Shown in pieces: positions 6,774 to 49,142 of a stretch of 64,000 nucleotides of DNA. Both the position numbers and the translations under genes were made by a program. The notes beneath the pieces are model-generated. The model was not told the DNA's origin. It saw only the letters and a list, made by a program, of their open reading frames with translations, and did not search any database. The first letter of the stretch is position 1. Every line of letters starts with the position of its first letter. This DNA comes from a virus (lineage: Duplodnaviria > Caudoviricetes): the IMG/VR virus record IMGVR_UViG_3300020050_010385, positions 31,132 to 95,131 of that record; one strand, written 5' to 3'.

Positions 6774-6776
6774 TCT

Positions 6777-10644: not shown

Positions 10645-10648
10645 GTCT

Positions 10649-11251: not shown

Positions 11252-11260
11252 GAGACTTGA

Positions 11261-12106: not shown

Positions 12107-12115
12107 GGATCTTAT

Positions 12116-12999: not shown

Positions 13000-13009
13000 G
13001 GAGAAACAA

Positions 13010-15379: not shown

Positions 15380-15410
15380 AAACTTATAAAAATATAAAGG
15401 AGATTATGCA

Positions 15411-16667: not shown

Positions 16668-16668
16668 T

Positions 16669-16845
16669 ATGATAGAAAACGTAGTCTTGACTATTCCTCC
16701 AGAAAAATACAAGTTCATGGTAAAGACCCTAGAATCCTTCAAGTCAGGAATACGTTTATTAAACCTAAATGCACTTTATAAACAAAGCCTAATAAAAGAA
16801 CTCCACACCATAGAGAGCATCATTAAAACTAATAGGAGTCAGTGA
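16669..16845 (+). CDS. Small hypothetical protein (58 aa; not in ORF track)
   Basis: MIENVVLTIPPEKYKF...TNRSQ*; the differences I found from the copy at 63808..63984 are all synonymous. Confidence 0.7.
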   Translation: MIENVVLTIPPEKYKFMVKTLESFKSGIRLLNLNALYKQSLIKELHTIESIIKTNRSQ

Positions 16846-17186
16846 TGGAATTCACTCAAGAATTTAAAGATGAAATGCTAAAGGAGATTAAAAATTTCAG
16901 AGTCCTACTCGTAGGTGACGGCACACTAGAAAATACTGGATTGATCGGTGTTGTAAAAGATCACGACAATTACGTCCGTGACGGTAAGAAGTGGCGGTGG
17001 GCGATTATTGGATTGATCGGATCCTTTGCCACGTACGTTGTCGGAGGGTTCATACTATACGGCAAAATGGAAGAACGAATTGAGTGGCACGACAAATATA
17101 TTAAATACTTTATTGACGAGAGAATGAATGCAAAAACACCAGTGCAACCCAATTACTATGACCCCCGAACAACTAAAAAACATTAA
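16845..17186 (+). CDS. Single-TM membrane protein of the lysis region
   Basis: TM segment WAIIGLIGSFATYVVGGFILY; AGGAG RBS. Confidence 0.6.
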   Translation: MEFTQEFKDEMLKEIKNFRVLLVGDGTLENTGLIGVVKDHDNYVRDGKKWRWAIIGLIGSFATYVVGGFILYGKMEERIEWHDKYIKYFIDERMNAKTPVQPNYYDPRTTKKH

Positions 17187-17325
17187 GGACTGTGTGAGGA
17201 AGATTGTGATACTGGAGAAAGCTATACAATTAAATAAACTCGAATTAGCCATTACTCTCATTGATCAGCTTAGGTTTGATTTAGGTCTACTAAATGAAGA
17301 AAGAAAACAAAGGAGACACGAATGA
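17128..17325 (+). CDS. Hypothetical protein (start uncertain)
   Basis: ORF fills the gap and couples (ATGA) to the next gene. Confidence 0.45.
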   Translation: MQKHQCNPITMTPEQLKNIKDCVRKIVILEKAIQLNKLELAITLIDQLRFDLGLLNEERKQRRHE

Positions 17326-17534
17326 ACTTGATTATCAAACTACTCAATCTTTTAAACGGCTACAAGACTTACCTAACAGCAACAGCTGCTGTTCTAACGG
17401 CTATCGTTGCCTACCTTAATCACGCTATCACAATCGAGGAGTTGCTCACAGCAGTCTTTACCGCTATCCAAAGTATGAACATTCGACACGCCATTACTAC
17501 AACCGTATCCAAAGCAACTGGAGAAAAACTATGA
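17322..17534 (+). CDS. Putative holin (70 aa, two hydrophobic segments)
   Basis: LNGYKTY motif, two TM-like stretches, charged C-terminus, AAGGAG RBS. Confidence 0.6.
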   Translation: MNLIIKLLNLLNGYKTYLTATAAVLTAIVAYLNHAITIEELLTAVFTAIQSMNIRHAITTTVSKATGEKL

Positions 17535-22653: not shown

Positions 22654-23031
22654 TTAGGTCTTGGCATATAAGGCCTCACTTAATCTTAATGACTGTTCTT
22701 TTAATAATTTTACAAAACCAGCAGTAGGGTACTTAATTCTTTCTAATCTATGAATAAACATGTGCTCTCCTCTACTCATAACTACTCCTTTAGCTGTCCA
22801 TAAGGCCCTGCACTTAATGGCCTCTTCTACAGTAGTAATATTATTCTCTACTATGATTTTACTAATGTGTCTAAGGTGGTGTACTTGAGTAAACTTCTTT
22901 ACCTTTGGATACGTAGGACACTGAGCTTTAATAATCTTTAACTTCCACCTTAAATACTCTTTAGTCTTTCTTATCTTAGCTATAAGAACTTTCATGGGAC
23001 TGAGCTTCTTTTTCCTTCTTCTCTTTGGCAT
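22654..23031 (-). CDS. Basic protein, degenerate HNH-like
   Basis: EY..WK..I, VHHL, G......H...H pattern. Confidence 0.45.
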   Translation of the reverse strand: MPKRRRKKKLSPMKVLIAKIRKTKEYLRWKLKIIKAQCPTYPKVKKFTQVHHLRHISKIIVENNITTVEEAIKCRALWTAKGVVMSRGEHMFIHRLERIKYPTAGFVKLLKEQSLRLSEALYAKT

Positions 23032-23046
23032 TTTATTTCCTTTAAC

Positions 23047-23628
23047 TTAACGATAGTTTCTCAGTTCCCAGTAGATTGGATTTTTCTGTAAACTACCAAC
23101 TTTTATTTTATAATAACTCCACTCTACTATACAAGATCCTTCATCCCAGCATAGGTCTCTTACTTCATAGATTATTTCATTGATCTCTCGATAAAAGGGA
23201 GATAGCTCATTAGTAACCCATTTAAGGCTCCCCGCAGGGATCTCAAGGCTCTTTTTGTGTGGGTGGGTGTCTAGTTCCCTTACCAGCCCAATTCCCTCTA
23301 CGAACTCCACCAAAATACCTCCCTCGGGGAGGGTAGCTACTGTCCCAAAGGCTAAGCTATCCTTCTTATCTAAGGCAGGATATAATAAGAGTAAATAGCC
23401 TTCTTCTAGGTGCCTTATTACTTTAGGTAAGAGGTCCATGGGCTTTAAGAGGTAATAAAAGGGGCATAGGAATTCATAGCCCCTTTCAGTCCTCATAGAC
23501 AATAGAGTACCTTCATTCTTATCTAAGTAGGCACAAGCTTCAATAAGATCCCTGGTCATAAAGCACTCTAGGGTATTTAGTCCCAGTTCTTGCATTTTAA
23601 TAATACTCTCTGATTTTCTTAGTGCCAT
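23047..23628 (-). CDS. Hypothetical protein, possible ATP-grasp/PPDK-type nucleotide-binding fold
   Basis: SMRT, VEF..G.GLVRELD, IVEWS, IYWELR spacing recalls PEP-synthase N-domain motifs. Confidence 0.35.
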   Translation of the reverse strand: MALRKSESIIKMQELGLNTLECFMTRDLIEACAYLDKNEGTLLSMRTERGYEFLCPFYYLLKPMDLLPKVIRHLEEGYLLLLYPALDKKDSLAFGTVATLPEGGILVEFVEGIGLVRELDTHPHKKSLEIPAGSLKWVTNELSPFYREINEIIYEVRDLCWDEGSCIVEWSYYKIKVGSLQKNPIYWELRNYR

Positions 23629-23629
23629 A

Positions 23630-24058
23630 TTAGTAATTACTTTTTTGTCTAAAAAGGTTAACCATAGACTTTTTGAAATATAGGATATAAACTTGGGTAG
23701 AGGTAAGTCCTAACTCCAAAAATAGCTGGATCATAAAATGAAGAGCATCTGCTAGTTCTTCTAGGAAATGGTCTTTATCCGTAGGTACATGAGTATTCTT
23801 CCAAGCTTTATTTCTTAAGCAATTACCAGCTTCATATAGCTCTTCAGTAATACGATATATGATAGCTCTTGCTCTTCTCTGCCCTTCAAAAGTATCAATA
23901 TCTATGGGGAAACTAGGTAATGCTTCTCCATTTTTTATTTCAATTTCATAGTACTTCTTTTCAAGCTCTTCCTGTCTTTTAAAAATATCGGTGAGCATAT
24001 CACCACTAGTTTGGAATTCCTTTTGAATATCTTCTTTAGTTATATTTTGAATATTCAT
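23630..24058 (-). CDS. All-alpha nucleotide pyrophosphatase (MazG/dimeric dUTPase-dCTPase type)
   Basis: EELYEA...K.WK...EELADALHF...K..VN..RQ...Y. Confidence 0.85.
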   Translation of the reverse strand: MNIQNITKEDIQKEFQTSGDMLTDIFKRQEELEKKYYEIEIKNGEALPSFPIDIDTFEGQRRARAIIYRITEELYEAGNCLRNKAWKNTHVPTDKDHFLEELADALHFMIQLFLELGLTSTQVYILYFKKSMVNLFRQKSNY

Positions 24059-24062
24059 TTTA

Positions 24063-24248
24063 CTACTCCTTTGTTAGTCCTAAGCTTTCTGCAATGAGTT
24101 GATCCTGTAGGCCCCTAATATCTTCAATATCCCACCCTCTTTCTAGTAGGTATTTTTCAACCATCCTTAAAGCTTTAGTAAATAGTTTAACAAGCTTATC
24201 ATCATATTTAGTCTTCTCCATCATATTCTCCTTCACTTGTAGTTTCAT
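24063..24248 (-). CDS. Hypothetical protein (start uncertain)
   Basis: ORF in operon. Confidence 0.5.
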   Translation of the reverse strand: MKLQVKENMMEKTKYDDKLVKLFTKALRMVEKYLLERGWDIEDIRGLQDQLIAESLGLTKE

Positions 24249-24589
24249 TTTAAGCCTATTCTATAAGCATGTTTAATATTCTCACTAGCTGTTACATATT
24301 CCAGATTACCCTTACAATTATTTAGCCTATCACCGTCCTTATGGTTTATTTGAAGTTTTCTAGGTTTTCTACCTATAAAAGCCCTTGCTACGATACTAGC
24401 AACTGAAATACTATTACCTAGTAAAGTAACATTTAAATATCTTCCCTTACCTCTCTTTTGTCCTTTTAATATTCTTCCTGGCCAAGTACCACACATGGCT
24501 TTACCGTCTCTTCTTATTCTACCCAGTGAAGAAACTGAGTATAATTTTTTATAACCAATTACTGGTTTCCATACCTCAATCTTCGCCAT
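24245..24589 (-). CDS. NUMOD4-HNH homing endonuclease (compact)
   Basis: EVWKPVIGY..LYSVSSLGRIR; INHKDGDRLNN...NLEYVT.SEN..HA. Confidence 0.88.
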   Translation of the reverse strand: MAKIEVWKPVIGYKKLYSVSSLGRIRRDGKAMCGTWPGRILKGQKRGKGRYLNVTLLGNSISVASIVARAFIGRKPRKLQINHKDGDRLNNCKGNLEYVTASENIKHAYRIGLK

Positions 24590-25484
24590 CGTAATCAACC
24601 TCTGAAGTAGTTTCACCACCATCATTTTCCATGAACAACCGATGTTCTTTGGGTAAATCCATCCACTCACCTCTCTTTGTACATCTATTCCAGTAGCCGC
24701 ACATTTGGGGAGAGCAGAACATATTATTTTCTCTTTGTGGTAGGAATACTCCTCTTCTTACCTGAAGAACTATTTTATAAACTAGATTAATAAACTGTCT
24801 AGTATCTTCTGGAGTAATGATCCTTAGCTCACTGCTTCTCATTTCAGGCTCAGCCTTCTTAATTAGAGTATCAAGTACAAAGCCAGAAGGATTCTTATTA
24901 AACTTAGCTTGATACCCCAGCCAATAAGAAACTCCCTGAGTAGACTTTATAGCTTCTAACCAATTAGGGGCCCTACTCTTATTCTTTAAGTCCCTAATCA
25001 TATGCCTAGTGGTAACCAAGTCAATAGTACCAGTAATACTAGCATTGACCTCTTTAAACTCTATGGCAAAGGGTTCTTCAACGTATAAGGGATCTACTCT
25101 CTTAGCTAGTTTCTCATAATAAACTGGTAATGCTTTCCTAATACCGTACTCCCTCATAGCCTCAGGCTTTTCATCCTGAGTAAACCTAGTTAAGACTGCT
25201 CTCTCTTTCCATGATTCATTGAAAACATCCTGAAGCACTGATAATTTAGCATCTCTACCTTTTCTTAATTTGTACTTATTTTGATGCTCAGCTGACTTGT
25301 GCATTGAGGTACCGAAGGTAGCATAGCTACGAGGTGGTTCTATAATACCCTTGTGGTACCTAAATAAAGCCTGGGCAGAACATTTTAAGGCCATTTTAAT
25401 ATAGGAGGTTCTTAGAACAATGTGCTTATTAGGCGGTATCATCCAGCCCTCAGTATTATCTAATGCTTCAGGATGTTCTCTCAT
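24576..25484 (-). CDS. PD-(D/E)XK (Cas4/RecB-like) exonuclease
   Basis: C...Y, GTSMH, VEEPF, GTIDL..IRDLK, C-terminal C....CGY...C. Confidence 0.8.
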   Translation of the reverse strand: MREHPEALDNTEGWMIPPNKHIVLRTSYIKMALKCSAQALFRYHKGIIEPPRSYATFGTSMHKSAEHQNKYKLRKGRDAKLSVLQDVFNESWKERAVLTRFTQDEKPEAMREYGIRKALPVYYEKLAKRVDPLYVEEPFAIEFKEVNASITGTIDLVTTRHMIRDLKNKSRAPNWLEAIKSTQGVSYWLGYQAKFNKNPSGFVLDTLIKKAEPEMRSSELRIITPEDTRQFINLVYKIVLQVRRGVFLPQRENNMFCSPQMCGYWNRCTKRGEWMDLPKEHRLFMENDGGETTSEVDYDGED

Positions 25485-25486
25485 GA

Positions 25487-26404
25487 TTATTTCCTTACTC
25501 TGTTGCGTGGTTTACGGGTACGAGCTGGTTCTTCTTCCTCTTCTTCAACTACCTTCTTCTTTTTAGTGACCTTAGCTGGCTCTTCATCATCATCTTCAGA
25601 GTCATCATCTGAGTCATCTGAGTCATCTGAGTCATCGGAATCATCATCATCATCAGCTACTTTCTTTGATTTACCTTTTGGTTCCTCATCTTGATCATCA
25701 TCATCGTTATCAGAGTCATCATCGTCGTCATCACTGTCTTTGGATTTCTTGGCCTTAGTACTCTTTCCAAAGTTCTCAGCAATAACATCTTCTTGTTCAT
25801 CTTCATCTAATTCCTCAGATACCTCATCTTCTAAATCAAACATCTTAGAAAGATCTGGTTCACCATCTGCATTTAAGGCAGGAGTAGATTTTGGTCTAAC
25901 TCTTACTTCATATCGAGTATCAGTCATACCAGTTCCTTCACGATCGATAATTACGTCGAAGCCTTCTTCGAGGTCGGTAATATCACCAATGTCCTCATCA
26001 TCCATAGCTCCAAGTAATACCTTTAAGGTCTTCTTACTAAATCCCCAAATGCAAATCATACCAGTTTTACGATCAATGATATTAGCAAAGTACTTAGTCT
26101 TTGGTTCTAGTCTCTTAGCTAATTTTTCTCCTTCAGCCCCTTCTTGCTTTAACTTATTGATATACTGCATGATAGGGGAATCATTACCAGTAAACTTAAC
26201 TGAGATACCTCTACCATCTTTTTTAAGACCATAGTGAATACTTTCCTCATGATAAAAATTACCTGAATCATTATTAGGAGGTAGGATTCTTACTCTATTA
26301 GGCCCAACTACGGGCTTAAAAAATTTACCACTTCCGATCTCAGCTAATTTTTGTTTAGCCTTATCCATGTTTGTTTTACCAATTTTACTTTTTTGCTTTA
26401 CCAT
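25487..26404 (-). CDS. Single-stranded DNA-binding/annealing protein (gp32-like) with long acidic tail
   Basis: FFKP..G.N.VRILPP, YFANIIDR, DITD..EG.D..I...G.G..T.Y.V; Asp/Glu-rich tail; AAGGAG RBS before ATG 26404. Confidence 0.75.
   Translation of the reverse strand: MVKQKSKIGKTNMDKAKQKLAEIGSGKFFKPVVGPNRVRILPPNNDSGNFYHEESIHYGLKKDGRGISVKFTGNDSPIMQYINKLKQEGAEGEKLAKRLEPKTKYFANIIDRKTGMICIWGFSKKTLKVLLGAMDDEDIGDITDLEEGFDVIIDREGTGMTDTRYEVRVRPKSTPALNADGEPDLSKMFDLEDEVSEELDEDEQEDVIAENFGKSTKAKKSKDSDDDDDDSDNDDDDQDEEPKGKSKKVADDDDDSDDSDDSDDSDDDSEDDDEEPAKVTKKKKVVEEEEEEPARTRKPRNRVRK
25560..25740. repeat. Low-complexity coding repeats (GAGTCATCT tandem; TCA runs) encoding the Asp/Ser tail of the SSB
   Basis: gagtcatctgagtcatctgagtcat and (TCA)n seen directly. 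Confidence 0.8.
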
Positions 26405-26612
26405 TTTTTTCTCCTTTACTTTTGTTTGCTTTGATTTCTTCTGGGGTAGCTTTACCGATGATCCTAAAAATAACATCCCCATTTTCCTTTGACTTACCAC
26501 GAATAGCCTTCATATTATTTTTCATGATAATAGTTTCACAATCTACCATCTCTACTTTCTTACCCAGCCGTACTGAATAACCATAGACTTTTTCACTCTT
26601 ATCTTTTTTCAC
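26385..26612 (-). CDS. Small basic DUF5679-like protein lacking the usual Zn cysteines
   Basis: Y.V...KKVEM.D.E...MKN...A.RG.....G...FRI.G. Confidence 0.5.
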   Translation of the reverse strand: MKKDKSEKVYGYSVRLGKKVEMVDCETIIMKNNMKAIRGKSKENGDVIFRIIGKATPEEIKANKSKGEKNGKAKK

Positions 26613-28423
26613 AGACTAACCTCCTTAAGGTCACTCCAACGTTCTCCAATTTTAATGTCCATTTTCATTGGTACTCTTAATTCTATAGGTGGATTCTCGG
26701 CTATGGATTTTAGCATCTTACCTATCTTTAAAGCATCCTCTTTCTTACAGTCTATGATTACTGAGTCGTGTACATTACATACCACCTTTCCGTTTAGTTT
26801 TAGTTTCTTAAGAGCATAATGTGCTCTAGTCCCTACCCACTTAGTTAAGTCTCCTGCTCCACCTTGTATGGGTGAATTAACTCCTTGTCTAAGCTTTCCT
26901 CTACCTGGTCCAGTATTATAGTTAGCTCCTGGTAGTCTTCTCTTCCTTCCAAAAAGATTAGTTACAAAGCCATTCTCTATAGTATTTTCTTTCTGGTCAT
27001 CAATATATCTCTTAACTCTTTTAAATTCTCTGAACCAATCATTAATCAATTCCCTAGCTCTTTCCTCACTACAGTCTAATTTATCCGATAATCCCAGTGG
27101 TCCAATCATATAAACTATACCGAAGTTTACCTGCTTAGCAAATTTCCTCTGCTCTTCAGTTACCTTTTCATAAGCAATATTAAATACCTTAGCAGCAACC
27201 TCTTGATGAATGTCTCTCCCTGACTTAAAGGCTCCTATTAAAGATTTATCACCGCTATGATGGGCTAATAGCCTAAGCTCAGCCTGAGAATAATCTCCTT
27301 GTACTAATACACCATTGGTATATGAAGAAATAAATAATCTTTTAATATCTCCATTCCTTGGAATATTCTGTAGGTTTGGTCCTTCACATGACATCCGCCC
27401 GGTTACTGTAAACATCTTATAGTTGCAATGTACTTTACCATCAGACTTCATAATATAGTTATCTGTTAATCCAGCAACATAGGTAGAGTACATCTTAGCA
27501 GTATAGCGATACTTTAGCAGATCTAATAGTGGTTGCTTATGTACTTTATTTAATTTCATCCTACCCAATTTTAAAAGAGTATCTTCATCACAAGAAGGTG
27601 CTCCTGGTTTATCTGGATTCTTCTTAGTGGGTGGATTCCTTTTAATAATGGGAAACTTATATTCTCCATATAACTTTTCACTTAGCTGCTTTGAAGAATT
27701 AAAATTCATATCACCGAAGTGGTGCAGTAGTGTCTTTTCACTTTCCTTTAATTCCTTTTCGTACTTAGTTCTTAGTTCACGTCTTACTCCATCATCTATC
27801 TTAAACCCATTCATTTCCATATAACACAGAACCTTTAGATTTTTCATCTCAAAATCCATGAGGTCAGATAGCTCTTCTTTCTCTAGTAGCCTTTTTTGAG
27901 CTGAGAATACTTGAAAGGCTGCATCAACATCTCCCCCATTATAATCAGTCCATTGTTTTAAATTCCAGCCTTCTCCGTATTTACTCTTCTTAAATAAATC
28001 CTTTTGCTTAGTAAGGTATTTCCCAAGCTCTGGGTTATACTTTCTTGTTAAAGCATCTAAGGTATTCTGCCATTGGTTTTCATCTAATAAATGCTCAGCA
28101 ACATGGGTGCAGAATATTTTAGACTTAATTGATTTAATTAGCTCATGTCTTAATAGCCACTTTAAATCAAATTTAATATCCTGGTTGATTAACATTTCAC
28201 ATGAATTTAAAATCTCTGAGATATTCTTAAAGTATCTTTCATGATATGGAAATACATAGCCTAAATCTGGCTTATTAGTAAAACCTACAAATTTAATAGT
28301 TTTAGAATTATCAAAGCAATCTAGTCCTTCAGTTTCAAGGTCACAAACTAAATTCTCAGATCCCTGCAGTAACTCGGTAATTCTTTTTAAATTTGTTTTA
28401 TCTACCAATTTATAGTGGGCCAT
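26609..28423 (-). CDS. DNA polymerase family A with 3'-5' exonuclease
   Basis: Exo DLETEG, NQDIKFD, YNGGD; TGRMS..PNLQNIP; motif A DYSQAELR; motif B RKFAKQVNFGIVY; motif C VHDS. Confidence 0.97.
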   Translation of the reverse strand: MAHYKLVDKTNLKRITELLQGSENLVCDLETEGLDCFDNSKTIKFVGFTNKPDLGYVFPYHERYFKNISEILNSCEMLINQDIKFDLKWLLRHELIKSIKSKIFCTHVAEHLLDENQWQNTLDALTRKYNPELGKYLTKQKDLFKKSKYGEGWNLKQWTDYNGGDVDAAFQVFSAQKRLLEKEELSDLMDFEMKNLKVLCYMEMNGFKIDDGVRRELRTKYEKELKESEKTLLHHFGDMNFNSSKQLSEKLYGEYKFPIIKRNPPTKKNPDKPGAPSCDEDTLLKLGRMKLNKVHKQPLLDLLKYRYTAKMYSTYVAGLTDNYIMKSDGKVHCNYKMFTVTGRMSCEGPNLQNIPRNGDIKRLFISSYTNGVLVQGDYSQAELRLLAHHSGDKSLIGAFKSGRDIHQEVAAKVFNIAYEKVTEEQRKFAKQVNFGIVYMIGPLGLSDKLDCSEERARELINDWFREFKRVKRYIDDQKENTIENGFVTNLFGRKRRLPGANYNTGPGRGKLRQGVNSPIQGGAGDLTKWVGTRAHYALKKLKLNGKVVCNVHDSVIIDCKKEDALKIGKMLKSIAENPPIELRVPMKMDIKIGERWSDLKEVSL

Positions 28424-28424
28424 T

Positions 28425-28856
28425 TTAATCTACCTGCTCATATATTAGTTCTGATTCACCGCCAAGTAGGTTAAGAATAAACCGGTCTCTGGCTAGATCC
28501 TTGTATAAATTAATAAAATAGAACTCTCTTACTCCTACTGAGTATAGATGCTTAAAGCAATCTTTGCAAGGTTCGTGAGTACAAAACATAATAAGTCTTG
28601 AGTAATTATGTTCCAAGTGTAGAAGGGCATTCATCTCAGCATGAATAGTTCTAATGCAATGACCTTCGTGTATAAGACAACCAATATCTATACAATGGGC
28701 TTCTCCAGGAGGAGAGCCGTTATAGCCTGTTGCTACTATCCTATTGTTATAGACTAATACTGCTCCTACTTGAGCCCGGGAACAGGTAGATCTCAAGGCT
28801 ACTAACTTAGCTATCTTTGTGTAATACTTTATTCGATCTATTCTTTTGAAGGTCAT
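28425..28856 (-). CDS. dCMP deaminase
   Basis: RSTC.RAQVGAV, TGYNG.P.G..HC, HAEMNA, PC..C. Confidence 0.93.
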   Translation of the reverse strand: MTFKRIDRIKYYTKIAKLVALRSTCSRAQVGAVLVYNNRIVATGYNGSPPGEAHCIDIGCLIHEGHCIRTIHAEMNALLHLEHNYSRLIMFCTHEPCKDCFKHLYSVGVREFYFINLYKDLARDRFILNLLGGESELIYEQVD

Positions 28857-29586
28857 TCCATTCTCCAGTCTTATAGTTAAGTAAAGGTAGCATACCATTC
28901 TTTACCTGTTTTTCTCCATAGATACCCATTAAGTAGTTTCTATAGTTTGTTAATCTTCTTATAGTAGGTAACTGATATCCACCAAAGTCTTTTTCTAAGT
29001 CTAAGCTGGTCCCTACATTTTCACCAAAGATTGTTTTGTAGCTTCTCATAGTTACCATAGAGAAAAATATTACAGTACAATTAAAGACTACCTTTACCTT
29101 CTCTAGCTTCAATTGATTTAACATGTAAGAGATTAATCTTAGGTCAGCTAAGAATTTCTTGGGTACTTCAGCTATCTTACTGGTTACTACTACGGTTATT
29201 TGTTTATTAGCTTTAAAAATATGGAAAGAAGATAAGCACCCTCCCTTACCACTGGGCTTCATTTTAAAGTTCATACCAATAGCGAAATACCTAGTATTTT
29301 TAATCTCCTCAAACTTTTCCCTTAATTCTCTCCACTGTTCTTGGTCAATATAAGTATTAACTAACCTAGTCATTTTATTACTTACTGTCCTCTCATAGCC
29401 CACAGTATGAAATAGTGCCATACCAGTCCATGATTTTTCCCAGCTCTTTATGACCATACGATTATTTAAAGAGATAATTCTTGTTCCCAGATCACAATCT
29501 ATAATCCCACTTTGGTCATTATTTAAAGCCATATCACCTAATTTTATCCATAAATGAGTTGGATTCTCTACAGTAATATCGATCAT
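28807..29586 (-). CDS. Divergent thymidylate-synthase-fold paralog
   Basis: GGCL...H, then ..EV.KKF.ADL aligning loosely with the PC...RS.D....PxD region; translationally coupled to the TS homolog. Confidence 0.45.
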   Translation of the reverse strand: MIDITVENPTHLWIKLGDMALNNDQSGIIDCDLGTRIISLNNRMVIKSWEKSWTGMALFHTVGYERTVSNKMTRLVNTYIDQEQWRELREKFEEIKNTRYFAIGMNFKMKPSGKGGCLSSFHIFKANKQITVVVTSKIAEVPKKFLADLRLISYMLNQLKLEKVKVVFNCTVIFFSMVTMRSYKTIFGENVGTSLDLEKDFGGYQLPTIRRLTNYRNYLMGIYGEKQVKNGMLPLLNYKTGEWNDLQKNRSNKVLHKDS

Positions 29587-30293
29587 TAAAACACCTTTTT
29601 CTTGTTCCAGTCTTTACGATAAGCATGTAAAGATCCAATAAATTGTGTAAATCTACCAGGCTCAATATCTAAATAATCTGCTAGTGCTCTTTGGAAACCC
29701 ATTGTTAGGGCTATATCATAGGGGAAATGAGTATAGAAATCACATGAGCGCATGGTATAAATACAATCTAGGTACTCTACATTATCACGAACTCTTCTTA
29801 AAAATTGGTAGTACATACTGCACGGTATTCTAGCTTTACCACCAATATTAGCTAAGTCTTTGTCCTTGTCATATAAAGTAATAATAGCCTGTCTAGTATT
29901 AGGATTTTTAATTAAGTTTTCAAGGATAGGAGTAAGTTGTTCACGAATTCTTTCATTGTAGGTATAAGAAAACTTACCGTCATGTAGGAATTGTTGCCAT
30001 ACCTCTAATCTATTTAGATAAGCCTCTCCTGGATTAAGGTAGGTACTTGAAATACGGGCATCTACTTCTTCATCGATATAGGCTCTATTTAACCCTAGCT
30101 CTTTAATATCTTGCCAGATAAATTTTTGGCTAGTAATCATAAAAGAATAACCCTGAATTTCTTTAGTAATGAAGTCATCATTATCTTTTACATTTTTATC
30201 CTGCATAGTTTCTGGGTGTACTAAAGTTCCCATTTCATTTAGATCTCTTTCCACTTCATTTACTGCTTGTGCTAATCCTTCATAGATACGCAT
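29586..30293 (-). CDS. Thymidylate-synthase-family enzyme, predicted dCMP (hydroxy)methylase
   Basis: YTY.ER, TRQA, RIPCS (catalytic Cys), MRSCDF..HFPYD (Asp at the specificity position), GSLHAY. Confidence 0.85.
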   Translation of the reverse strand: MRIYEGLAQAVNEVERDLNEMGTLVHPETMQDKNVKDNDDFITKEIQGYSFMITSQKFIWQDIKELGLNRAYIDEEVDARISSTYLNPGEAYLNRLEVWQQFLHDGKFSYTYNERIREQLTPILENLIKNPNTRQAIITLYDKDKDLANIGGKARIPCSMYYQFLRRVRDNVEYLDCIYTMRSCDFYTHFPYDIALTMGFQRALADYLDIEPGRFTQFIGSLHAYRKDWNKKKVF

Positions 30294-31117
30294 TTTTTAT
30301 TTCCTCCTATTATTTTACGAAGTTCACGAGCTGGAATATCATCTGGATCTTTATAATTATCTAAGAAGATATACTTAGTAGGTATATGAAAACTTAGTTG
30401 CTTAATTAATTCCCATTGCTCCTTAACAGCATCTCGATCGAGCATAATGGTGGCACTATTAGCTACTTTAGCTATCTCCTGGAGTTGAGCAGCATCTGCT
30501 CTCTTCCCTAGTAATGAAATAGCTGGCTTTACTCGACCAATTTTTATTGCATCGAATACTCCCTCTACTACAATAGCATGGTCTACTCTTCCAGCAAAAG
30601 TAGTGAATAATACTCCTTTCTTTGAGAAACTAATTGAATTAAAGTATCTGGGTTCCTTATTAGTAAATGATCTACCAACAAAATAAATTAATTTACTCAA
30701 TCGATAAATTGGCAAAATTATTCTTTCTGAGTAGTCTCCATCACTGCAATACCCCATATTGTACTGAGCAACCTCATCTGGATTAATTCCTCTATTAATG
30801 AGGTAGTTATAGGGAAGGCCACTATTAGAATTAAGCTTGTTAAAATGTTCTGGTAATTTCATTATCTTTCTTTCTTTAATTTCCCTTGATTCTTTTGTTA
30901 AAAACTTATTAGCTCTATCTTGAAAGTTGTCTAGGGTAGGGCCTAAGTCTTCTACCTTTCCCTTAAAGGCACATTTTTGACAATAGAATAGTTTTTTACC
31001 GAGGTGGACATATAAGTGATATTTCTGGTCATCGCAATTAGTACAGCAGAATCTTACCTGCCTGGGATTATTAGTTCTTTTAGATTCTCCTAATGATAGA
31101 AGATTAATTCTTACCAC
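30272..31117 (-). CDS. DNA primase (Zn-finger plus TOPRIM)
   Basis: C..C...H...C..C; YL..RG; RIILP; GRS; VEGVFDA; LD.DA; KDPDD. Confidence 0.9.
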   Translation of the reverse strand: MVRINLLSLGESKRTNNPRQVRFCCTNCDDQKYHLYVHLGKKLFYCQKCAFKGKVEDLGPTLDNFQDRANKFLTKESREIKERKIMKLPEHFNKLNSNSGLPYNYLINRGINPDEVAQYNMGYCSDGDYSERIILPIYRLSKLIYFVGRSFTNKEPRYFNSISFSKKGVLFTTFAGRVDHAIVVEGVFDAIKIGRVKPAISLLGKRADAAQLQEIAKVANSATIMLDRDAVKEQWELIKQLSFHIPTKYIFLDNYKDPDDIPARELRKIIGGNKKCVSMKD

Positions 31118-32375
31118 TTTTATATTCTCCCATAAACATAGTCTCTGGCTCTAATGCTAAACGTATTGTTGGATGCCCAGACTTCTTTCTAGACTTAGCA
31201 ATAAATAGTCTTACTAACTTTTCTTCTTCCTCTTCTGGTGTTTGACAAATACCAATAACTACATCAGCTACCTTTACTTTACCAAAAGACTCAGCTACGT
31301 CCCTGAGGCCAACCAGGTTCCTATTTAAGCTTTCTCTATTACTTTGACTTGCCGTATAAATTGGTACTTGTAGCTTTACAGCTAATCTCCTTAGGTCAGT
31401 ATATACTTCTTCTAAGCTATGGCGGGTATCTTTGTGCTTTTGCCCAGGAGCTAATAAATCACCATAGTCAACCACTATAATATCAAACTGCTCATTATTC
31501 CGACTTTGATAATTAAGGACCATTGAGTAAATATCTTGTACTCTAGGTGATTCCATTGAGTAGTCTTTAATAACTAGGTTGCATCCTTTAGCCTTTAGTC
31601 TACTAAGTGGGTTCTTAATGGCTCCGGGATTATCTCTGAGACTCTGGAAAGTATTTTTAGTTATCCTCATATCATATCTACGAGCTATTTTCCGATCGGA
31701 TATTTCTAGAGTTAAGTGTAGTACCTTTAGTCCCTGCATTAAAGCTCCCATACCCATATTGATTAAAGCGGTAGTCTTACCTCTACCAGGAGGGCCTAGA
31801 AATACCAGTAATTCTCCTGGACTCATTCCTCCATCTAGTTCAAGATCTAGCCTTTTAATTCCAGTGGAAATCTTCTTTTCTTTTACCTCATCTATCATCC
31901 TTTGTCCTGGATCTTCAAAATATGAATAAGTATCAGAGGCTACTCCTACGTCTAAGTTCATGGCCTTATCAATATATTCTTTTACCGTTAGGAAATCAGG
32001 ATTGCTGTGGTCCAATAAAGCTAAGGCCTCTGTTATAGCTAATTTAACTAATTGAATCTTAGCAAAATGACTAATAGTTTCTTGAATGATTTTATTATCT
32101 GTACTATTTTGCCTTCTAATTAAACTAACTATCGATAGGCAACTTTCTCTTAAGTCTTCATCCTTAATATTCTTATTAATTAGAAGCCTCATATTTCCTG
32201 TGCTTAGCTTATATGAATCATACTTTTGAAAGAAGCCTTCAATAATCTGGAATAATTGCTTTGTCTCTTCACTAGCAAAGAAGGCTGGCTGTAGGATAGA
32301 CTTATACTTGAACCAATTTTCTTTTACTCTTATGGTACTTAGAATGCGGATTTCAGTTTGCTTGGTTGCTTCCAT
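31104..32375 (-). CDS. DnaB-like (SF4) replicative helicase
   Basis: TGI..LD..L.GG, GPPGRGKT, TLE, IVVDYGDL, TASQSNR, AESFGK..VAD, KSR. Confidence 0.93.
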   Translation of the reverse strand: MEATKQTEIRILSTIRVKENWFKYKSILQPAFFASEETKQLFQIIEGFFQKYDSYKLSTGNMRLLINKNIKDEDLRESCLSIVSLIRRQNSTDNKIIQETISHFAKIQLVKLAITEALALLDHSNPDFLTVKEYIDKAMNLDVGVASDTYSYFEDPGQRMIDEVKEKKISTGIKRLDLELDGGMSPGELLVFLGPPGRGKTTALINMGMGALMQGLKVLHLTLEISDRKIARRYDMRITKNTFQSLRDNPGAIKNPLSRLKAKGCNLVIKDYSMESPRVQDIYSMVLNYQSRNNEQFDIIVVDYGDLLAPGQKHKDTRHSLEEVYTDLRRLAVKLQVPIYTASQSNRESLNRNLVGLRDVAESFGKVKVADVVIGICQTPEEEEEKLVRLFIAKSRKKSGHPTIRLALEPETMFMGEYKSGKN

Positions 32376-32622
32376 AACTAAAATGCTCCTTTTCTGCATG
32401 AATCAAATACTTTATCAGGCACCGTAACTCTTTTTGATTAAAGCTCAGCCCATTGCTGGTAAACATAAAACCTTTTGAATTATGAGTACATTCTCTTAAG
32501 TCTAAAACTAGATTGTAGTTTCTAATTAGCACTCTAATCCTATATTTGATTATCTTCTCAGAATCATTCCTTTTTATGATTGAAGGATATTCAGTAATTT
32601 TCTCTTCTTGGAATTTGCCCAT
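32353..32622 (-). CDS. PC4-like ssDNA-binding protein
   Basis: IRV......LDLRE......FT.NGLSF. Confidence 0.5.
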   Translation of the reverse strand: MGKFQEEKITEYPSIIKRNDSEKIIKYRIRVLIRNYNLVLDLRECTHNSKGFMFTSNGLSFNQKELRCLIKYLIHAEKEHFSYGSNQAN

Positions 32623-32903
32623 GGTGAGGACTACCTTTTTAAAATATTTTTTCTATAGTTGATATAAATGGCTAGTAGTTCTTTTTTTGAGTATTTAGCC
32701 CATGAGATAACTTTATTGCTTTTGTCTATTGAGTAGTGATTTGATAGCCACTCAACTAGTTGATACTTAAATGAAGGAATCCAAAAATCTATTTTTAAAT
32801 TGTACATCGGTATTTTACCTGATTAAACTATTAAGAGAATCTTTCCTTAAATAGGGATTTGAACCCTTATCTCCGAAGTAATAATAATAAGATACCTATT
32901 GGA

Positions 32904-33188
32904 TTAAATGCCATCCTCATCAGAATCATCATCATCGTCATCTTCAGCTTTAGCCTTCTTTGAAGAAACCTTCTTAGAAACTTTAGAAGACTTGACTGCA
33001 TCTTTTTTAGCTACTGGTTTTTCTTTAGCCTTGGTAGTTTCTTTTGCTTCTTTCTTTTTACCATCACCGCGTAATGAATAACCTTCAGCTCGTAACTGGC
33101 GGCGAATATTAGCAGCTTCTTTACTAGCACGATCTGAGATTTTTTCTAATTTCTTTAAGAGTTCTTCAACTTTTTTATTTGTAGCCAT
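32904..33188 (-). CDS. Lys-rich small protein with acidic tail (possible DNA-binding)
   Basis: Composition; AAGGAG RBS. Confidence 0.65.
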   Translation of the reverse strand: MATNKKVEELLKKLEKISDRASKEAANIRRQLRAEGYSLRGDGKKKEAKETTKAKEKPVAKKDAVKSSKVSKKVSSKKAKAEDDDDDDSDEDGI

Positions 33189-33192
33189 TTTC

Positions 33193-33633
33193 TTATTCTC
33201 CTTTATTTCGTTTATAATCTAATTTTCTTAATTGCATCCTTATTTTTCTTGCTTTAGTTTTATCACCGCATTTGAAAGCTTCCTCCTTTTCTTTTAGTAG
33301 TTTTTTTACTTCATCAGTAACATTTACTCCTAGTTGAATAGCCTTCTTAAGTGATGTTACTTTTTCTTTACCGTGAGTGGGTATTTGACTGTAGATTTCT
33401 ATTTCTTCTTGTAGATCTTTTTTATTCTTATAGGATTGTTCATCTGGACTACGTTCTGGTATTTCATTTAAGTGCCTAATATGTGGCCTCTTATCTAATG
33501 GCATTCTTTTAATATCTTCTAGGGTTTGAATACTTTCCATGATTGCGAATAACTTACCATCTACTAATACGAAGGTAGGTCTACCGTCTTTATGAAAGCT
33601 TCTTGTTGTTTTTCTTTCGATTCTTTTTTCCAT
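33193..33633 (-). CDS. Hypothetical protein
   Basis: ORF; shares an A..IR.QLR...Y motif with 32904..33188. Confidence 0.6.
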   Translation of the reverse strand: MEKRIERKTTRSFHKDGRPTFVLVDGKLFAIMESIQTLEDIKRMPLDKRPHIRHLNEIPERSPDEQSYKNKKDLQEEIEIYSQIPTHGKEKVTSLKKAIQLGVNVTDEVKKLLKEKEEAFKCGDKTKARKIRMQLRKLDYKRNKGE

Positions 33634-34042
33634 GAGATACCTTTTTCTTTTCTTTATAGAAAATATGATCTTTTATTTTATAGGTTTCTACCATGGCCTT
33701 AGCCCAGTAGGGTTCTCCGAAGGAAGTAATATTTTCCCAGTGGGTTGCTCCTTTTGTTGGGTCCTCTTTTAGGGAATTCTTTACTGCCTTTTTTGCTAAG
33801 TCCCATACCCACTTAGGTTCTCTATTAGGTAAAGAACTTGTAAATCCATATACTCCTTTTAAAGTTCCTCTATTTCTTATTGCACAGGCTACAGCTAACA
33901 TTCCATTGTAGCCTTGATTACTAGCTTCTCCTACAATGGCCCTAGCTAAGTCTTCATCACTAATTTGATTAGCCTTTACTTCTTTATCTGAGAAAATAAA
34001 GGTCAACATGGAAATAATAATTATGGTTCTTAGTGAATTCAT
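33590..34042 (-). CDS. Cell-wall hydrolase (SleB/Hydrolase_2-like) with N-terminal signal
   Basis: LARAIVGEA..Q...GMLAVA..IRNR; DPTKGATH; I.DHIFY. Confidence 0.85.
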   Translation of the reverse strand: MNSLRTIIIISMLTFIFSDKEVKANQISDEDLARAIVGEASNQGYNGMLAVACAIRNRGTLKGVYGFTSSLPNREPKWVWDLAKKAVKNSLKEDPTKGATHWENITSFGEPYWAKAMVETYKIKDHIFYKEKKKVSHGKKNRKKNNKKLS

Positions 34043-34415: not shown

Positions 34416-34868
34416 CTATTTTAAAATATTTTTCTCCCAAGATTCTACCTCCTTTATTTCTTTAATAGTAAATAGTGGATGCATTTCAATATTTCTATAG
34501 CCCTTAGTTAAGATGGATTTTACTAAGTGCATTCTTTCTCGGTCATTGCGATAAACTAGTTTCTTATAAATCCATTGCATTTCAAAAATAAGTTGTCCAG
34601 CTGATACTGGAATACAATCTACTTTTCTTGGTGGATCTATTTCTTTAAAATTATATCCTCTTTCAATTGATTCATTTTTTAATCCTTGAAGATAAGAAAG
34701 AATAGCGGCTTTTGGATCTGGGTGTGCTTTAAATCTTATTAGCTGAGAATGATTCTTATAACCAATAGTTTCATTTCTCAGAACAGCCTGGGCTAAAAGT
34801 GATTCTCTCCAACATGCTACTAAACCTTTTGAATCTAAATACTTGGGATGAATACTCCATAGTCTCAT
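34416..34868 (-). CDS. denV: Pyrimidine-dimer DNA glycosylase (T4 endonuclease V family)
   Basis: MRLWSIHPKYLD.KGLVA.WRE.LLAQ.VL...T.GY.NH.QL.RF; AAGGAG RBS before ATG 34868. Confidence 0.88.
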   Translation of the reverse strand: MRLWSIHPKYLDSKGLVACWRESLLAQAVLRNETIGYKNHSQLIRFKAHPDPKAAILSYLQGLKNESIERGYNFKEIDPPRKVDCIPVSAGQLIFEMQWIYKKLVYRNDRERMHLVKSILTKGYRNIEMHPLFTIKEIKEVESWEKNILK

Positions 34869-34881
34869 TTCTATATTCTCC

Positions 34882-35136
34882 TTATCCATTGAATCCCTTT
34901 TCTGGAGCTTGTAAAGGCTCATTAGTTGGTACATCTACTATTTTAACTAAATCTTTTTCTTTGTAAAGGGAACATTTAGCTGGAAGTAAATTAGGATCTC
35001 TATGTAAAGAGAACTTACCTACTCCGCAAAGATATGTGCTCTTCTCTTCCTTCTGATTGAGATTAGTGAATCCTTTGTTAAGAATTAAATATCTGCATTT
35101 TGCTTGACTGAGACAAATACCAATTTCAGCTTTCAT
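34882..35136 (-). CDS. Cys-containing hypothetical protein
   Basis: ORF with AAGGAG RBS. Confidence 0.55.
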   Translation of the reverse strand: MKAEIGICLSQAKCRYLILNKGFTNLNQKEEKSTYLCGVGKFSLHRDPNLLPAKCSLYKEKDLVKIVDVPTNEPLQAPEKGFNG

Positions 35137-39181: not shown

Positions 39182-39183
39182 TT

Positions 39184-39882
39184 ATGGATAGTGAAATTAA
39201 ATTCTCAATTGTATTCCCTACTAGAGAAAGACCTGAACTACTTGAGAAGCTTATGACCTCGGTATTAGAGAATACCAGAAACCTTAGTGAGGTAGAAGTT
39301 TTAATTGCCATAGATGAAGATGATAATAGCTATAACCATTTAAAATTCTATTCTTGCTTTAAAGTCTTTAGAGTTAAGCGTTCACTCAATTTTTCTCAGG
39401 ATTACTATACCTTCCTTGCTCATCAATCAAAAGGTAAATGGATTATAGCCGCTAATGATGATTGCTGCTTTGAGACTATGGACTGGGATGTGGTTGCTTA
39501 TGATATTCTCAAGGACCTACCAAATACTATCTATGGCTGGTGTGAGGACGGCCTGGGTGAGTATAGAGCTAAAGGACACGGCAATTACTGCTGCTTCCCA
39601 CTTCAAGGACGTAAAGGGTTTGAAGCTCTTGGATTTATCTTTCCAGCTAGAATACCCACTTGGGGGGCTGATATATGGTGCAAGAATATTTATGATGCCA
39701 TTGATTCAGTAGTTTATTTACCAATTAAACTTATACATTATAACTATCATAACTTTACTCGTGAGCAAGATAAGGTCAGTATTCGTATTGCTGAGAACCA
39801 AGTAGCTTTTGACGTAAGGCCACATTATAGTGAAGTCAATGCCTTATTAGCTTCTCTTCGTAAGGAGCTTACTAATGAGTGA
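39184..39882 (+). CDS. Glycosyltransferase family 2-like protein
   Basis: FSIVFPTRERP..L, EVLIAID.DD, ANDD (DxD-like), W..D.W. Confidence 0.8.
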   Translation: MDSEIKFSIVFPTRERPELLEKLMTSVLENTRNLSEVEVLIAIDEDDNSYNHLKFYSCFKVFRVKRSLNFSQDYYTFLAHQSKGKWIIAANDDCCFETMDWDVVAYDILKDLPNTIYGWCEDGLGEYRAKGHGNYCCFPLQGRKGFEALGFIFPARIPTWGADIWCKNIYDAIDSVVYLPIKLIHYNYHNFTREQDKVSIRIAENQVAFDVRPHYSEVNALLASLRKELTNE

Positions 39883-46876: not shown

Positions 46877-46888
46877 TTACCATAGACT

Positions 46889-46922
46889 TGGGAGGGTGGG
46901 GAATAATAGTCCTGCCCTCCCA
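46889..46922 (+). promoter_or_regulatory. Stem-loop downstream of the capsid gene (copy B)
   Basis: TGGGAGGGTGGGG...TCCTGCCCTCCCA. Confidence 0.6.
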
Positions 46923-46941
46923 CAAATAAAAGGAGTTAACG

Positions 46942-47151: not shown

Positions 47152-47152
47152 A

Positions 47153-47596: not shown

Positions 47597-47604
47597 GGAT
47601 TAAT

Positions 47605-49129: not shown

Positions 49130-49142
49130 AGGAGCATAATGA

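What the first reader, a model, noticed from the sequence alone, without database searches (positions are those of the whole stretch)
23630..30293. Cytosine-modification-type nucleotide pathway: dCMP-specific TS homolog, divergent TS paralog, deaminase, pyrophosphatase
Seen: the TS-family protein has MRSCDFYTHFPYD. Established: the equivalent residue is Asn177 in dUMP-specific E. coli ThyA (RSCD...PFN) and Asp179 in T4 dCMP hydroxymethylase, so Asp points to dCMP. It is coupled to a 259-aa protein with remnant TS-like motifs, then dCMP deaminase and the polymerase, with a MazG-type pyrophosphatase downstream. Inference: either the DNA contains 5mC or 5hmC in place of C (the pyrophosphatase removing dCTP), or dTMP is made by dCMP to 5m-dCMP to dTMP. 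The paralog may form a heterodimer. A link to the C-to-T/CpG skew of this arm is attractive but unproven.
Basis: partly seen in the sequence, partly recalled or inferred. Interest (0 to 1): 0.72.

Follow-up and report, generated by a model that had tools for sequence, protein, structure and literature searches.

The report
Phage cytosine-modification genes with twin synthases
An uncultured tailed phage carries a recently described gene set for altering cytosine before it enters DNA, and its main enzyme sits beside a second, unstudied relative of the same enzyme that turns out to accompany it in most related phages.

Summary
On the minus strand, between primase and DNA polymerase, lie three genes. 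The first is a 235-aa thymidylate-synthase (TS) homolog with Asp at the E. coli Asn177 position. The second is a 259-aa protein (TSL) that no Pfam model recognises but that folds as a TS (pLDDT 91.7; Z 14.6 to a phage dCMP hydroxylase). The third is a dCMP-family deaminase. A T4 gp56-like dCTPase/dUTPase lies downstream.

The TS(Asp)–deaminase–PolA–pyrophosphatase neighbourhood is already described. It is tied experimentally to phage DNA with modified cytosine, to 5-methyl-dCMP synthesis, and to dTTP made by deaminating 5-methyl-dCTP. The pathway is therefore a new member of a known kind.

The product cannot be read from sequence. This TS family (Arg143/Ser147/Gln127/Asp177, no C-terminal tail) fails the signatures of ThyA, T4 hydroxymethylase and 5-hydroxy-dCMP synthase, and it differs from Xp12-type methylases. 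I favour 5-methyl-dCMP.

The new part is TSL. It keeps the catalytic Cys, a basic residue at 166, Tyr94 and Asp177 in all 55 distinct relatives. A TSL gene accompanies this TS family in 48 of 80 related viral loci, including cultured Clostridium phages. It is nearly exclusive with an adjacent C5 DNA methyltransferase. Its function is unknown.

The suggested link to CpG depletion is not supported. Earlier scan notes on this record agree on the tandem genomes, the enzyme trio and the CpG loss.

The parts
29586..30293 (-). TS-family enzyme (235 aa), predicted dCMP-specific C5 one-carbon transferase. It is a short form without the ThyA C-terminal tail.
   Evidence: PF00303 E 1.9e-16. Residues at E. 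coli positions: E58, W80, Y94, R126, Q127, R143, C146, S147, R166, S167, D169, D177, H207, Y209. Asp193 is invariant in 32 aligned relatives.
28807..29586 (-). TSL: divergent TS-fold paralog (259 aa) of unknown function, with conserved catalytic-type residues Y79, C117, K137, E140 and D148.
   Evidence: AF2 pLDDT 91.7. Foldseek and VIA top matches are all TS family, Z 14.6 to 9iqu. The spacings Cys-23-Glu-8-Asp equal E. coli C146-D169-N177. Conservation in 55 distinct relatives.
28425..28898 (-). dCMP/cytidine-family zinc deaminase. Its probable start is at 28856, overlapping the tail of TSL.
   Evidence: PF00383 E 8.8e-21 and phrog_174. Best solved relative is the 2hvv dCMP deaminase, E 3.9e-28; PBCV-1 dCMP/dCTP deaminase 7fh4 scores 2.8e-5.
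26609..28423 (-). Family A DNA polymerase with 3'-5' exonuclease domain, the presumed user of the altered dNTP pool.
   Evidence: PF00476 E 4.4e-96 and PF01612.
23630..24058 (-). All-alpha NTP pyrophosphatase of the dimeric dUTPase / T4 gp56 dCTPase type.
   Evidence: PF08761 E 2.5e-9 and phrog_12184 E 3.8e-26. 22% identity to T4 gp56, E 4e-9, reaching the C-terminal Tyr. Found next to this TS family in 73 of 84 loci.
23047..23628 (-). Minimal ATP-grasp protein (193 aa), conserved beside the pyrophosphatase in the closest relatives. Role unknown; a kinase for the modified nucleotide is only a guess.
   Evidence: AF2 pLDDT 94.6. Foldseek matches are D-Ala-D-Ala ligases, MdnC, succinyl-CoA synthetase beta and the rifampin phosphotransferase ATP domain. 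Present in 12 of 80 IMG/VR TS-family loci, never together with a thymidylate-kinase-like gene.
24576..26500 (-). SSB-like protein (25487-26500) and PD-(D/E)XK exonuclease (24576-25484). They are replication-module context between the polymerase and the pyrophosphatase.
   Evidence: phrog_1192 E 6e-27 and PF12705 E 6.3e-16. The same gene order occurs in relative L004.

Best explanation
This is the nucleotide-precursor arm of a phage cytosine-replacement pathway, embedded in the replication module.

Proposed flow:
1. The gp56-like pyrophosphatase converts dCTP (and dUTP) to the monophosphate.
2. The Asp177-type TS homolog uses methylene-tetrahydrofolate to add a one-carbon group to C5 of dCMP. 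I favour 5-methyl-dCMP at about 55%, 5-hydroxymethyl-dCMP at about 25%, and something else for the rest.
3. A kinase not identified here (host-encoded, or possibly the ATP-grasp protein) and host NDP kinase raise the product to the triphosphate.
4. The adjacent deaminase converts part of the modified cytosine nucleotide pool to thymidine nucleotides. This would explain why the phage has no dUMP-specific TS or ThyX.
5. The family A polymerase incorporates the modified dCTP.

What is shown: gene identities, active-site residues, the TS fold of TSL, and conserved gene neighbourhoods. What is inferred from published work on homologous neighbourhoods: substrates, the product, and modification of the DNA.

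The second TS-fold protein (TSL) is a regular partner of this TS family and probably an active enzyme on a cytosine nucleotide. Its reaction is unknown.
For: Active site and family:
- Asp at 177 is invariant, alongside intact Cys146, Arg166, Ser167, Asp169, Glu58, Trp80 and Tyr94.
- The whole 95-kb record has only two PF00303 matches, both Asp-type. It has no ThyX, DHFR or thymidylate-kinase family match.

Neighbourhood:
- The gp56-like pyrophosphatase occurs near this TS family in 73 of 84 loci, the deaminase in 51 and PolA in 53.
- Gene order is identical in a relative whose TSL is only 35% identical.

Literature:
- Asn177Asp switches TS to dCMP. Asp177 TSs are enriched on modified-cytosine contigs and co-occur with PRA-PH-type pyrophosphatases and dCMP deaminases (PMC8670742).
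- 70% of deaminases on modified contigs lie within 3 kb of a TS, and PolA is among their top neighbours. Five of seven such TSs made 5-methyl-dC in vivo. One such deaminase is selective for 5-methyl-dCTP and yields dTTP (bioRxiv 10.1101/2024.12.05.627091).

Against hydroxymethyl and hydroxyl products:
- There is no Asp/Glu three residues before the Cys (Arg155 instead). D145N inactivates T4 dCH (PMC6400193).
- Asp169 is kept, whereas 5-hydroxy-dCMP synthases have Asn there (PMC13326640).

Sister genome:
- Its virion genes are about 80% identical to this phage's. It carries the same trio built around an Xp12-like TS that is 35% identical to the proven 5-methyl-dCMP synthase.
Against: - No assay, and no read-level modification data.
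- This TS family lacks the C-terminal tail that seals the ThyA site for hydride transfer.
- In my tree it groups with T4 gp42 and RB69 gp48 (99/99, with a long-branch warning), not with Xp12/PaMx74. That fits a non-methyl product as well as a methyl one.
- Arg at position 143 occurs in none of the characterised enzymes aligned here (E. coli ThyA, Xp12, PaMx74, T4 gp42, RB69 gp48).
- I could not establish that the tested TSs of the preprint belong to this family; its supplements are not held.
- No dNMP kinase was found in the phage.
- The best solved relatives of the deaminase are ordinary dCMP deaminases, so selectivity for 5-methyl-C is unproven.
- The pyrophosphatase could be a plain dUTPase.
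Confidence: 0.65

Rival explanations
1. T4-like scheme. The TS homolog is a dCMP hydroxymethylase and the DNA carries 5-hydroxymethylcytosine, possibly further decorated, for example by the GT2 glycosyltransferase at 39178-39882. The deaminase only feeds dUMP to the host ThyA.
For: - Short form without the C-terminal tail, like T4 dCH. Length is similar to T4 gp42 and RB69 gp48.
- It clusters with those two enzymes at 99/99.
- The A1 profile scores RB69 gp48 above Xp12.
- A glycosyltransferase is present in the genome.
Against: - It lacks the dCH signature. Arg replaces Asp/Glu three residues before the catalytic Cys, and there is no Ser/Thr-x-Tyr. T4 D145N is inactive.
- The tree grouping carries a long-branch warning.
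- The GT2 and its neighbouring methyltransferase are shared at 66% and 87% identity with the sister genome, whose TS is Xp12-like. They sit in the packaging module, not the nucleotide module.
- A deaminase acting on 5hm-dC nucleotides would put 5hmU into the DNA.
Confidence: 0.2
2. Thymidylate bypass only. dCMP goes to 5-methyl-dCMP and then, by deamination, to dTMP (or the same at the triphosphate level), supplying T for an AT-rich genome. The DNA keeps ordinary cytosine.
For: - TS and deaminase are tightly linked, and the record has no dUMP-type TS, ThyX or dNMP kinase.
- Eighteen related loci carry a C5 DNA methyltransferase beside the TS. That enzyme would be redundant if every C were already modified.
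Against: - The gp56-like dCTPase co-occurs in 73 of 84 loci. This suggests dCTP is removed, not merely tapped.
- Asp177 TSs are enriched on contigs selected for modified cytosine.
- The published model has both full replacement and the bypass.
Confidence: 0.12
3. Ordinary dTMP supply module: the deaminase makes dUMP, the dUTPase cleans up dUTP, and the TS methylates dUMP.
For: Pfam names the three proteins thymidylate synthase, dCMP deaminase and dUTPase_2.
Against: Asp, not Asn, at position 177 in the window TS and in all 24 other TS sequences tabulated except E. coli ThyA, and invariant in 32 aligned family members. His147 is replaced by Ser and the C-terminal tail is absent.
Confidence: 0.03

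Closest known systems
Xp12 / PaMx74-type 5-methylcytosine phages and the MetaGPA 'TS(Asp177)-deaminase-PolA-pyrophosphatase' neighbourhood (eLife 2021 e70021; bioRxiv 10.1101/2024.12.05.627091)
   Same: An Asp177 TS next to a dCMP-family deaminase, with a nucleotide pyrophosphatase and PolA nearby and no dUMP-type TS. The sister genome in the same record even has an Xp12-like TS (35% identity).
   Different: - The window TS is only 26% identical to the Xp12 TS over the core.
- It is a short form without the C-terminal tail.
- It has Arg143/Ser147 where Xp12 has Asn143/Pro147.
- There is no DHFR.
- A second TS-fold gene sits between TS and deaminase, which Xp12, PaMx74 and the sister genome lack.
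T4 gp42 dCMP hydroxymethylase with gp56 dCTPase and cd deaminase
   Same: Asp at the 177 position, no C-terminal tail, similar length, a gp56-related pyrophosphatase and a deaminase in the genome.
   Different: No Asp/Glu at -3 from the catalytic Cys and no Ser-x-Tyr. No gp1-type kinase, no second dUMP-specific TS, and no T4-type glucosyltransferase.
5-hydroxy-dCMP synthases (RB69 gp48, DLP3 gp80, HY126 AfhB; PDB 9iqu/9iqc)
   Same: These are the best solved-structure matches for both the TS profile (E 2e-16) and the TSL model (Z 14.6). They share the short form and Asp177.
   Different: They carry the diagnostic Asp169Asn and Glu143. The window TS keeps Asp169 and has Arg143; TSL has Glu at position 169.
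PHROG 34294 (unknown function), the only library family that touches TSL
   Same: Weak match, E 5.3e-6, over residues 69-171.
   Different: It carries no annotation. The TS fold and the pairing with an Asp-type TS are not recorded in the libraries or papers I could search.

Membership tests
Thymidylate synthase / dCMP hydroxymethylase superfamily (PF00303): the 235-aa protein | Profile match above the curated cut-off | tested here: met
   60.5 bits against a cut-off of 24.3; 59.4 bits in the six-frame search.
Thymidylate synthase / dCMP hydroxymethylase superfamily (PF00303): the 235-aa protein | Catalytic Cys146, Arg166-Ser167, Asp169, Tyr94 and Glu58 equivalents | tested here: met
   All present in the alignment to E. 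coli ThyA. Cys158, Arg182, Ser183 and Asp185 are invariant in 32 relatives.
dUMP-specific ThyA | Asn at position 177 | tested here: not met
   Asp193.
dUMP-specific ThyA | C-terminal tail that closes the folate site, and hydrophobic Leu143 | tested here: not met
   The protein ends about 40 residues before ThyA does. Arg is at position 143.
T4-type dCMP hydroxymethylase | Asp at the 177-equivalent position (T4 Asp179) | tested here: met
T4-type dCMP hydroxymethylase | Asp/Glu three residues before the catalytic Cys, plus Ser/Thr two residues before the catalytic Tyr (signature proposed in PMC6400193) | tested here: not met
   Arg155 lies at -3. The sequence FSYTY has Tyr, not Ser/Thr, at -2.
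5-hydroxy-dCMP synthase (flavin-dependent TS homologs) | Asp169 replaced by Asn | tested here: not met
   Asp185 is retained, whereas RB69 gp48 has Asn.
Xp12-type 5-methyl-dCMP synthase | Asp177 TS encoded next to a dCMP-family deaminase | tested here: met
   TS-TSL-deaminase are contiguous. Xp12 and PaMx74 have TS-deaminase.
Xp12-type 5-methyl-dCMP synthase | Production of 5-methyl-dCMP from dCMP | not testable with these tools
   Needs expression with a dNMP kinase and LC-MS, as in the preprint read.
Xp12-type 5-methyl-dCMP synthase | Membership of the same clade as Xp12/PaMx74 | tested here: not met
   The window family forms a separate clade (99/97) that groups with T4 and RB69 enzymes, while Xp12, PaMx74 and the sister-genome TS group together at 95/87 (long-branch caveat).
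TS fold: the 259-aa TSL | Structural match covering the core sheet and helices | tested here: met
   Z 14.6, rmsd 3.0 over 180 residues to 9iqu. 396 of the 1000 chains aligned score Z>=8, and all 50 entries listed are TS-family enzymes. Foldseek probability 1.0.
TS fold: the 259-aa TSL | Sequence-profile membership (PF00303) | tested here: not met
   No Pfam hit. hhalign against the TS family gives probability 4.9%, although Cys and Asp align in register.
TS fold: the 259-aa TSL | Pair of arginines (126/127) donated across the dimer to bind the 5'-phosphate | tested here: not met
   The position is not conserved in the TSL family.
T4 gp56-type dCTPase/dUTPase (all-alpha NTP pyrophosphatase) | Sequence similarity to gp56 and to the dimeric dUTPase profile | tested here: met
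   E 4e-9 to gp56. PF08761 scores 38.1 bits against a cut-off of 22.9.
T4 gp56-type dCTPase/dUTPase (all-alpha NTP pyrophosphatase) | Hydrolysis of dCTP | not testable with these tools
   Needs an enzyme assay.
5-methylcytosine-selective deaminases (mSCD) | Preference for 5-methyl-dCTP over dCTP/dCMP | not testable with these tools
   The trait is reported as polyphyletic with no sequence signature. The fold family itself is met (PF00383).

The most novel reading that the evidence does not exclude
TSL defines an uncharacterised, catalytically active branch of the TS fold. It keeps Cys, Tyr, Arg/Lys and Asp but has lost the trans-arginine pair and the canonical folate loops. It would work with the Asp-type TS in one of two ways. 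It could be a heterodimer partner that changes the product. Or it could be a second enzyme that acts on a cytosine substrate other than dCMP (dCTP, the TS product, or cytosine in DNA). Its near-exclusive alternation with C5 DNA methyltransferases next to the same TS family would then mean the two do equivalent jobs.
Probability: 0.2. Interest if true: 0.8.

Novelty: new variant of a known kind. Interest (0 to 1): 0.55.

Why it matters
Phage DNA base replacement decides which restriction, CRISPR and other host defences can act. It has also supplied tools such as the 5mC-selective deaminases now proposed for methylome sequencing.

This locus adds three things:
- A large TS family of uncertain product (more than 900 proteins with E <= 0.001 in the homology search) that none of the published active-site signatures classifies.
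- A second TS-fold family that travels with it in most related phages and has no annotation in any library searched.
- Cultured Clostridium perfringens phages that carry the same pair, so the chemistry can be tested directly at the bench.

If TSL is an enzyme with a new substrate or product, it widens the known reaction range of one of the best-studied enzyme folds.

Tried and rejected
- Megablast of 23000-34000 against the phage collection: no match.
- PDB sequence search with TSL: nothing, even at E 10.
- hhalign of TSL against the TS family: probability 4.9%, so sequence alone does not establish homology. The fold search was needed.
I built an HMM and searched the ORFs of TS-family loci instead.
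- Four context look-ups failed on a machine outage and were repeated later (then 80-83).
- Supplements of the deaminase preprint are not held, so I could not check whether its seven tested TSs belong to this family.
- Independent-pairs test of TSL against C5 methyltransferase on the TS tree: only 5 supported pairs, so no power. The Fisher p of 7.8e-8 ignores relatedness and is only suggestive.
- ATP-grasp against thymidylate-kinase-like exclusivity: 0 overlap, but Fisher p 0.11. This is a lead only.
- A literature search for cultured carriers (CPD4 and relatives) found nothing on their DNA chemistry.
- Rejected, 5-hydroxy-dCMP synthase: Asp169 is kept.
- Rejected, plain ThyA: Asp177.
- Rejected, CpG depletion as a consequence of this pathway: the sister genome has the analogous trio and a normal CpG content.

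Full report
**What the window is.** It is the last 64 kb of a 95,131-base IMG/VR virus record. The record holds two related tailed-phage genomes of about 47 kb in tandem.
- Virion genes at window 1-17 kb recur at 46.7-64 kb with 78-90% identity.
- The terminase-portal block recurs upstream of the window at 73-82% identity.
- I call the upstream genome lineage A. I call the one holding the finding lineage B (window about 17.5-64 kb).
- Lineage B's replication genes lie on the minus strand from about 18 to 35 kb. The order is helicase, primase, TS homolog, 259-aa ORF, deaminase, PolA, SSB-like, PD-(D/E)XK exonuclease, an HNH endonuclease, a 61-aa ORF, a pyrophosphatase and a 193-aa ORF.

**The TS homolog (29586-30293).**
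- It matches PF00303 (E 1.9e-16) and aligns to solved TSs. Cys158 falls on the catalytic Cys, RSCD on RSCD, and Asp193 on Asn177.
- More than 900 proteins of about 235 aa are related to it. In 32 aligned members Cys158, Arg182, Ser183, Asp185, Asp193 and His223 are invariant.
- Against E. coli ThyA the family reads E58, W80, Y94, R126, Q127, R143, C146, S147, R166, S167, D169, D177, H207, Y209. The folate and catalytic machinery is therefore intact, while the base-specifying residue is Asp.
- It stops about 40 residues short of ThyA's C-terminus.

**What published signatures say about it.**
- Asn177Asp switches TS to dCMP. Asp177 TSs are enriched on phage contigs with modified cytosine (PMC8670742).
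- An acidic residue three positions before the Cys, plus Ser/Thr-x-Tyr, marks hydroxymethylases, and T4 D145N is dead (PMC6400193).
- Asp169Asn marks flavin-dependent 5-hydroxy-dCMP synthases (PMC13326640).
- The window enzyme has Arg at -3 and keeps Asp169, so it fails both of the last two signatures.
- It also differs from the proven methylases of Xp12 and PaMx74, which have Asn143, Pro147 and the long C-terminus.
- In a maximum-likelihood tree the family is one clade (99/97). It groups with T4 gp42 and RB69 gp48 (99/99) rather than with ThyA, Xp12 and PaMx74. The program warns that long branches meet there.
- The product is therefore not decidable from sequence.

**Why I lean towards 5-methyl-dCMP.**
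- The hydroxymethylase signature is absent.
- The enzyme is wired to a deaminase and a polymerase exactly as in the neighbourhoods studied in bioRxiv 10.1101/2024.12.05.627091. There, five of seven deaminase-linked Asp177 TSs made 5-methyl-dC, and one deaminase converted 5-methyl-dCTP to dTTP.
- Lineage A shares about 80% identical virion genes. It has a non-orthologous but equivalent trio built around an Xp12-like TS: a dUTPase_2 protein, a 266-aa TS with N143/P147/D177 that is 35% identical to the Xp12 enzyme, and a deaminase.

**The 259-aa protein (TSL, 28807-29586).**
- It has no Pfam or PDB sequence match.
- A full HMMER scan of 1.8 billion representatives found 32 relatives.
- With their alignment, AlphaFold2 gave pLDDT 91.7.
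- Foldseek ranks phage HY126 dCMP hydroxylase, T4 dCH and MilA first, then classical TSs. VIA-align gives Z 14.6 (rmsd 3.0, 180 residues) to 9iqu and about 11.4 to classical TSs.
- The spacings Cys117-(23)-Glu140-(8)-Asp148 equal E. coli Cys146-Asp169-Asn177, and Lys137 falls on Arg166.
- A profile of the family found TSL genes in 48 of 80 IMG/VR loci that had been fetched for their TS gene. All are on the TS strand and 31 lie within 400 nt of the TS gene.
- It also found the unannotated gene CPD4_74, just upstream of the TS of Clostridium phage CPD4.
- In 55 distinct members Cys117 and Asp148 are invariant. Position 137 is always Arg or Lys. Tyr79 is present in 96%, Lys/Arg71 in 95% and Glu140 in 73%.
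- The arginine pair that a TS subunit lends to its partner's phosphate site is not conserved.
- Six further contexts of distant TSL members all show a Pfam-recognisable TS within two genes, and five of the six show a deaminase.
- TSL is absent from the regions of Xp12, PaMx74, T4 and RB69 that I fetched, and from the fetched 32 kb of lineage A.
- So TSL is a regular, probably catalytic companion of this particular TS family, not a decaying duplicate.

**A further pattern around TSL.**
- Among the 32 loci without TSL, 17 have a C5 cytosine DNA methyltransferase (PF00145) beside the TS. Among the 48 loci with TSL only one does (Fisher p 7.8e-8).
- On the TS tree the two states alternate between close relatives several times. 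The formal independent-pairs test has too few supported pairs to say anything.
- I treat this as a lead that TSL and the DNA methyltransferase may serve equivalent roles.

**Other parts of the module.**
- The deaminase has the HAE and PCxxC motifs. Its best solved relatives are ordinary dCMP deaminases. Selectivity for 5-methyl-C cannot be read from sequence, because the trait is reported as polyphyletic.
- The pyrophosphatase is a dimeric-dUTPase-type all-alpha protein related to T4 gp56. It accompanies this TS family in 73 of 84 loci.
- The 193-aa protein next to it is a minimal ATP-grasp fold. It occurs in the closest relatives and never together with the thymidylate-kinase-like gene that 16 other loci carry. 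A kinase role is a guess.
- The whole record has no ThyX, DHFR or thymidylate-kinase family match, and no Asn-type TS.

**CpG content.**
- Lineage B has CpG observed/expected of 0.50-0.56, against 0.96-1.06 in lineage A.
- In aligned virion genes, 592 sites are CG in A. In B, 133 remain CG, 186 read TG, 75 read CA, 66 read AG and 65 read CT. Only 79 sites go the other way.
- Transversions contribute to the loss, and TpG and CpA are not in excess.
- Lineage A carries the analogous enzyme trio without any CpG loss.
- The module therefore does not explain the depletion. Earlier scan notes reached the same view.

**Verdict.** The pathway is a new member of a recently described kind. The product remains open, with methyl favoured. 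The TS-TSL pairing is a new and testable variant.

Noticed in passing
window 1-17500 versus 46689-64000, and the record upstream of the window (L092, L093): The record is two related phage genomes of about 47 kb in tandem, probably joined by the assembler. Virion genes are 78-90% identical, but the replication modules are non-orthologous. PolA is 24% identical, TS 26% and the deaminase 36%.
   Followed up: partly
window 18300-64000 versus 1-17500: Lineage B is CpG-depleted (observed/expected 0.50-0.56) while lineage A is not (0.96-1.06). Where A has CG in aligned genes, B has TG 186, CA 75, AG 66 and CT 65 times, and keeps CG 133 times.
   Followed up: partly
window 23047-23628 (-): A 193-aa minimal ATP-grasp protein lies immediately downstream of the gp56-like pyrophosphatase. 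It is conserved in the closest relatives and never co-occurs with the thymidylate-kinase-like gene found in 16 other TS-family loci.
   Followed up: partly
window 24245-24670 (-): A NUMOD4 + HNH_3 endonuclease gene overlaps the 3' end of the exonuclease gene. It is absent at this position in the syntenic relative L004, so it is probably a homing-endonuclease insertion.
   Followed up: no
window 39178-40417 (+): A GT2 glycosyltransferase and a Methyltransf_24 SAM methyltransferase lie between the large terminase and the portal. Both are shared with lineage A at 66% and 87% identity. Their target (DNA, virion or host surface) is unknown.
   Followed up: partly
L004, L094, L095 (PolA genes); L013:9413-9991 and 17 further loci: Relatives fuse a UDG-superfamily domain to the N-terminus of PolA, or encode it as a separate gene beside the TS. 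The window PolA (604 aa) has no such domain, and none turned up among the window ORFs I scanned with Pfam.
   Followed up: no
L012, L029, L034, L035, L039, L045, L047, L050, L057, L062, L075, L077: TS-family loci without TSL often carry an asparagine-synthase-like amidotransferase, together with a C5 DNA methyltransferase in 11 of the 12 (not L029). Four of the 12 (L029, L039, L045, L057) also carry a thymidylate-kinase-like gene and PolB. This may be a different cytosine hypermodification cluster.
   Followed up: no
window 34416-34934 (-): Pyrimidine-dimer DNA glycosylase (T4 DenV-like, PF03013 E 2e-21) at the edge of the replication arm.
   Followed up: no
window 28807-28898: The TSL reading frame runs 50-92 nt into the deaminase gene, whereas the overlap is 4-17 nt in relatives L003 and L004. 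The extra 17 residues of TSL lie past the conserved TGEW ending, and its last five residues (255-259) are modelled below pLDDT 50.
   Followed up: partly
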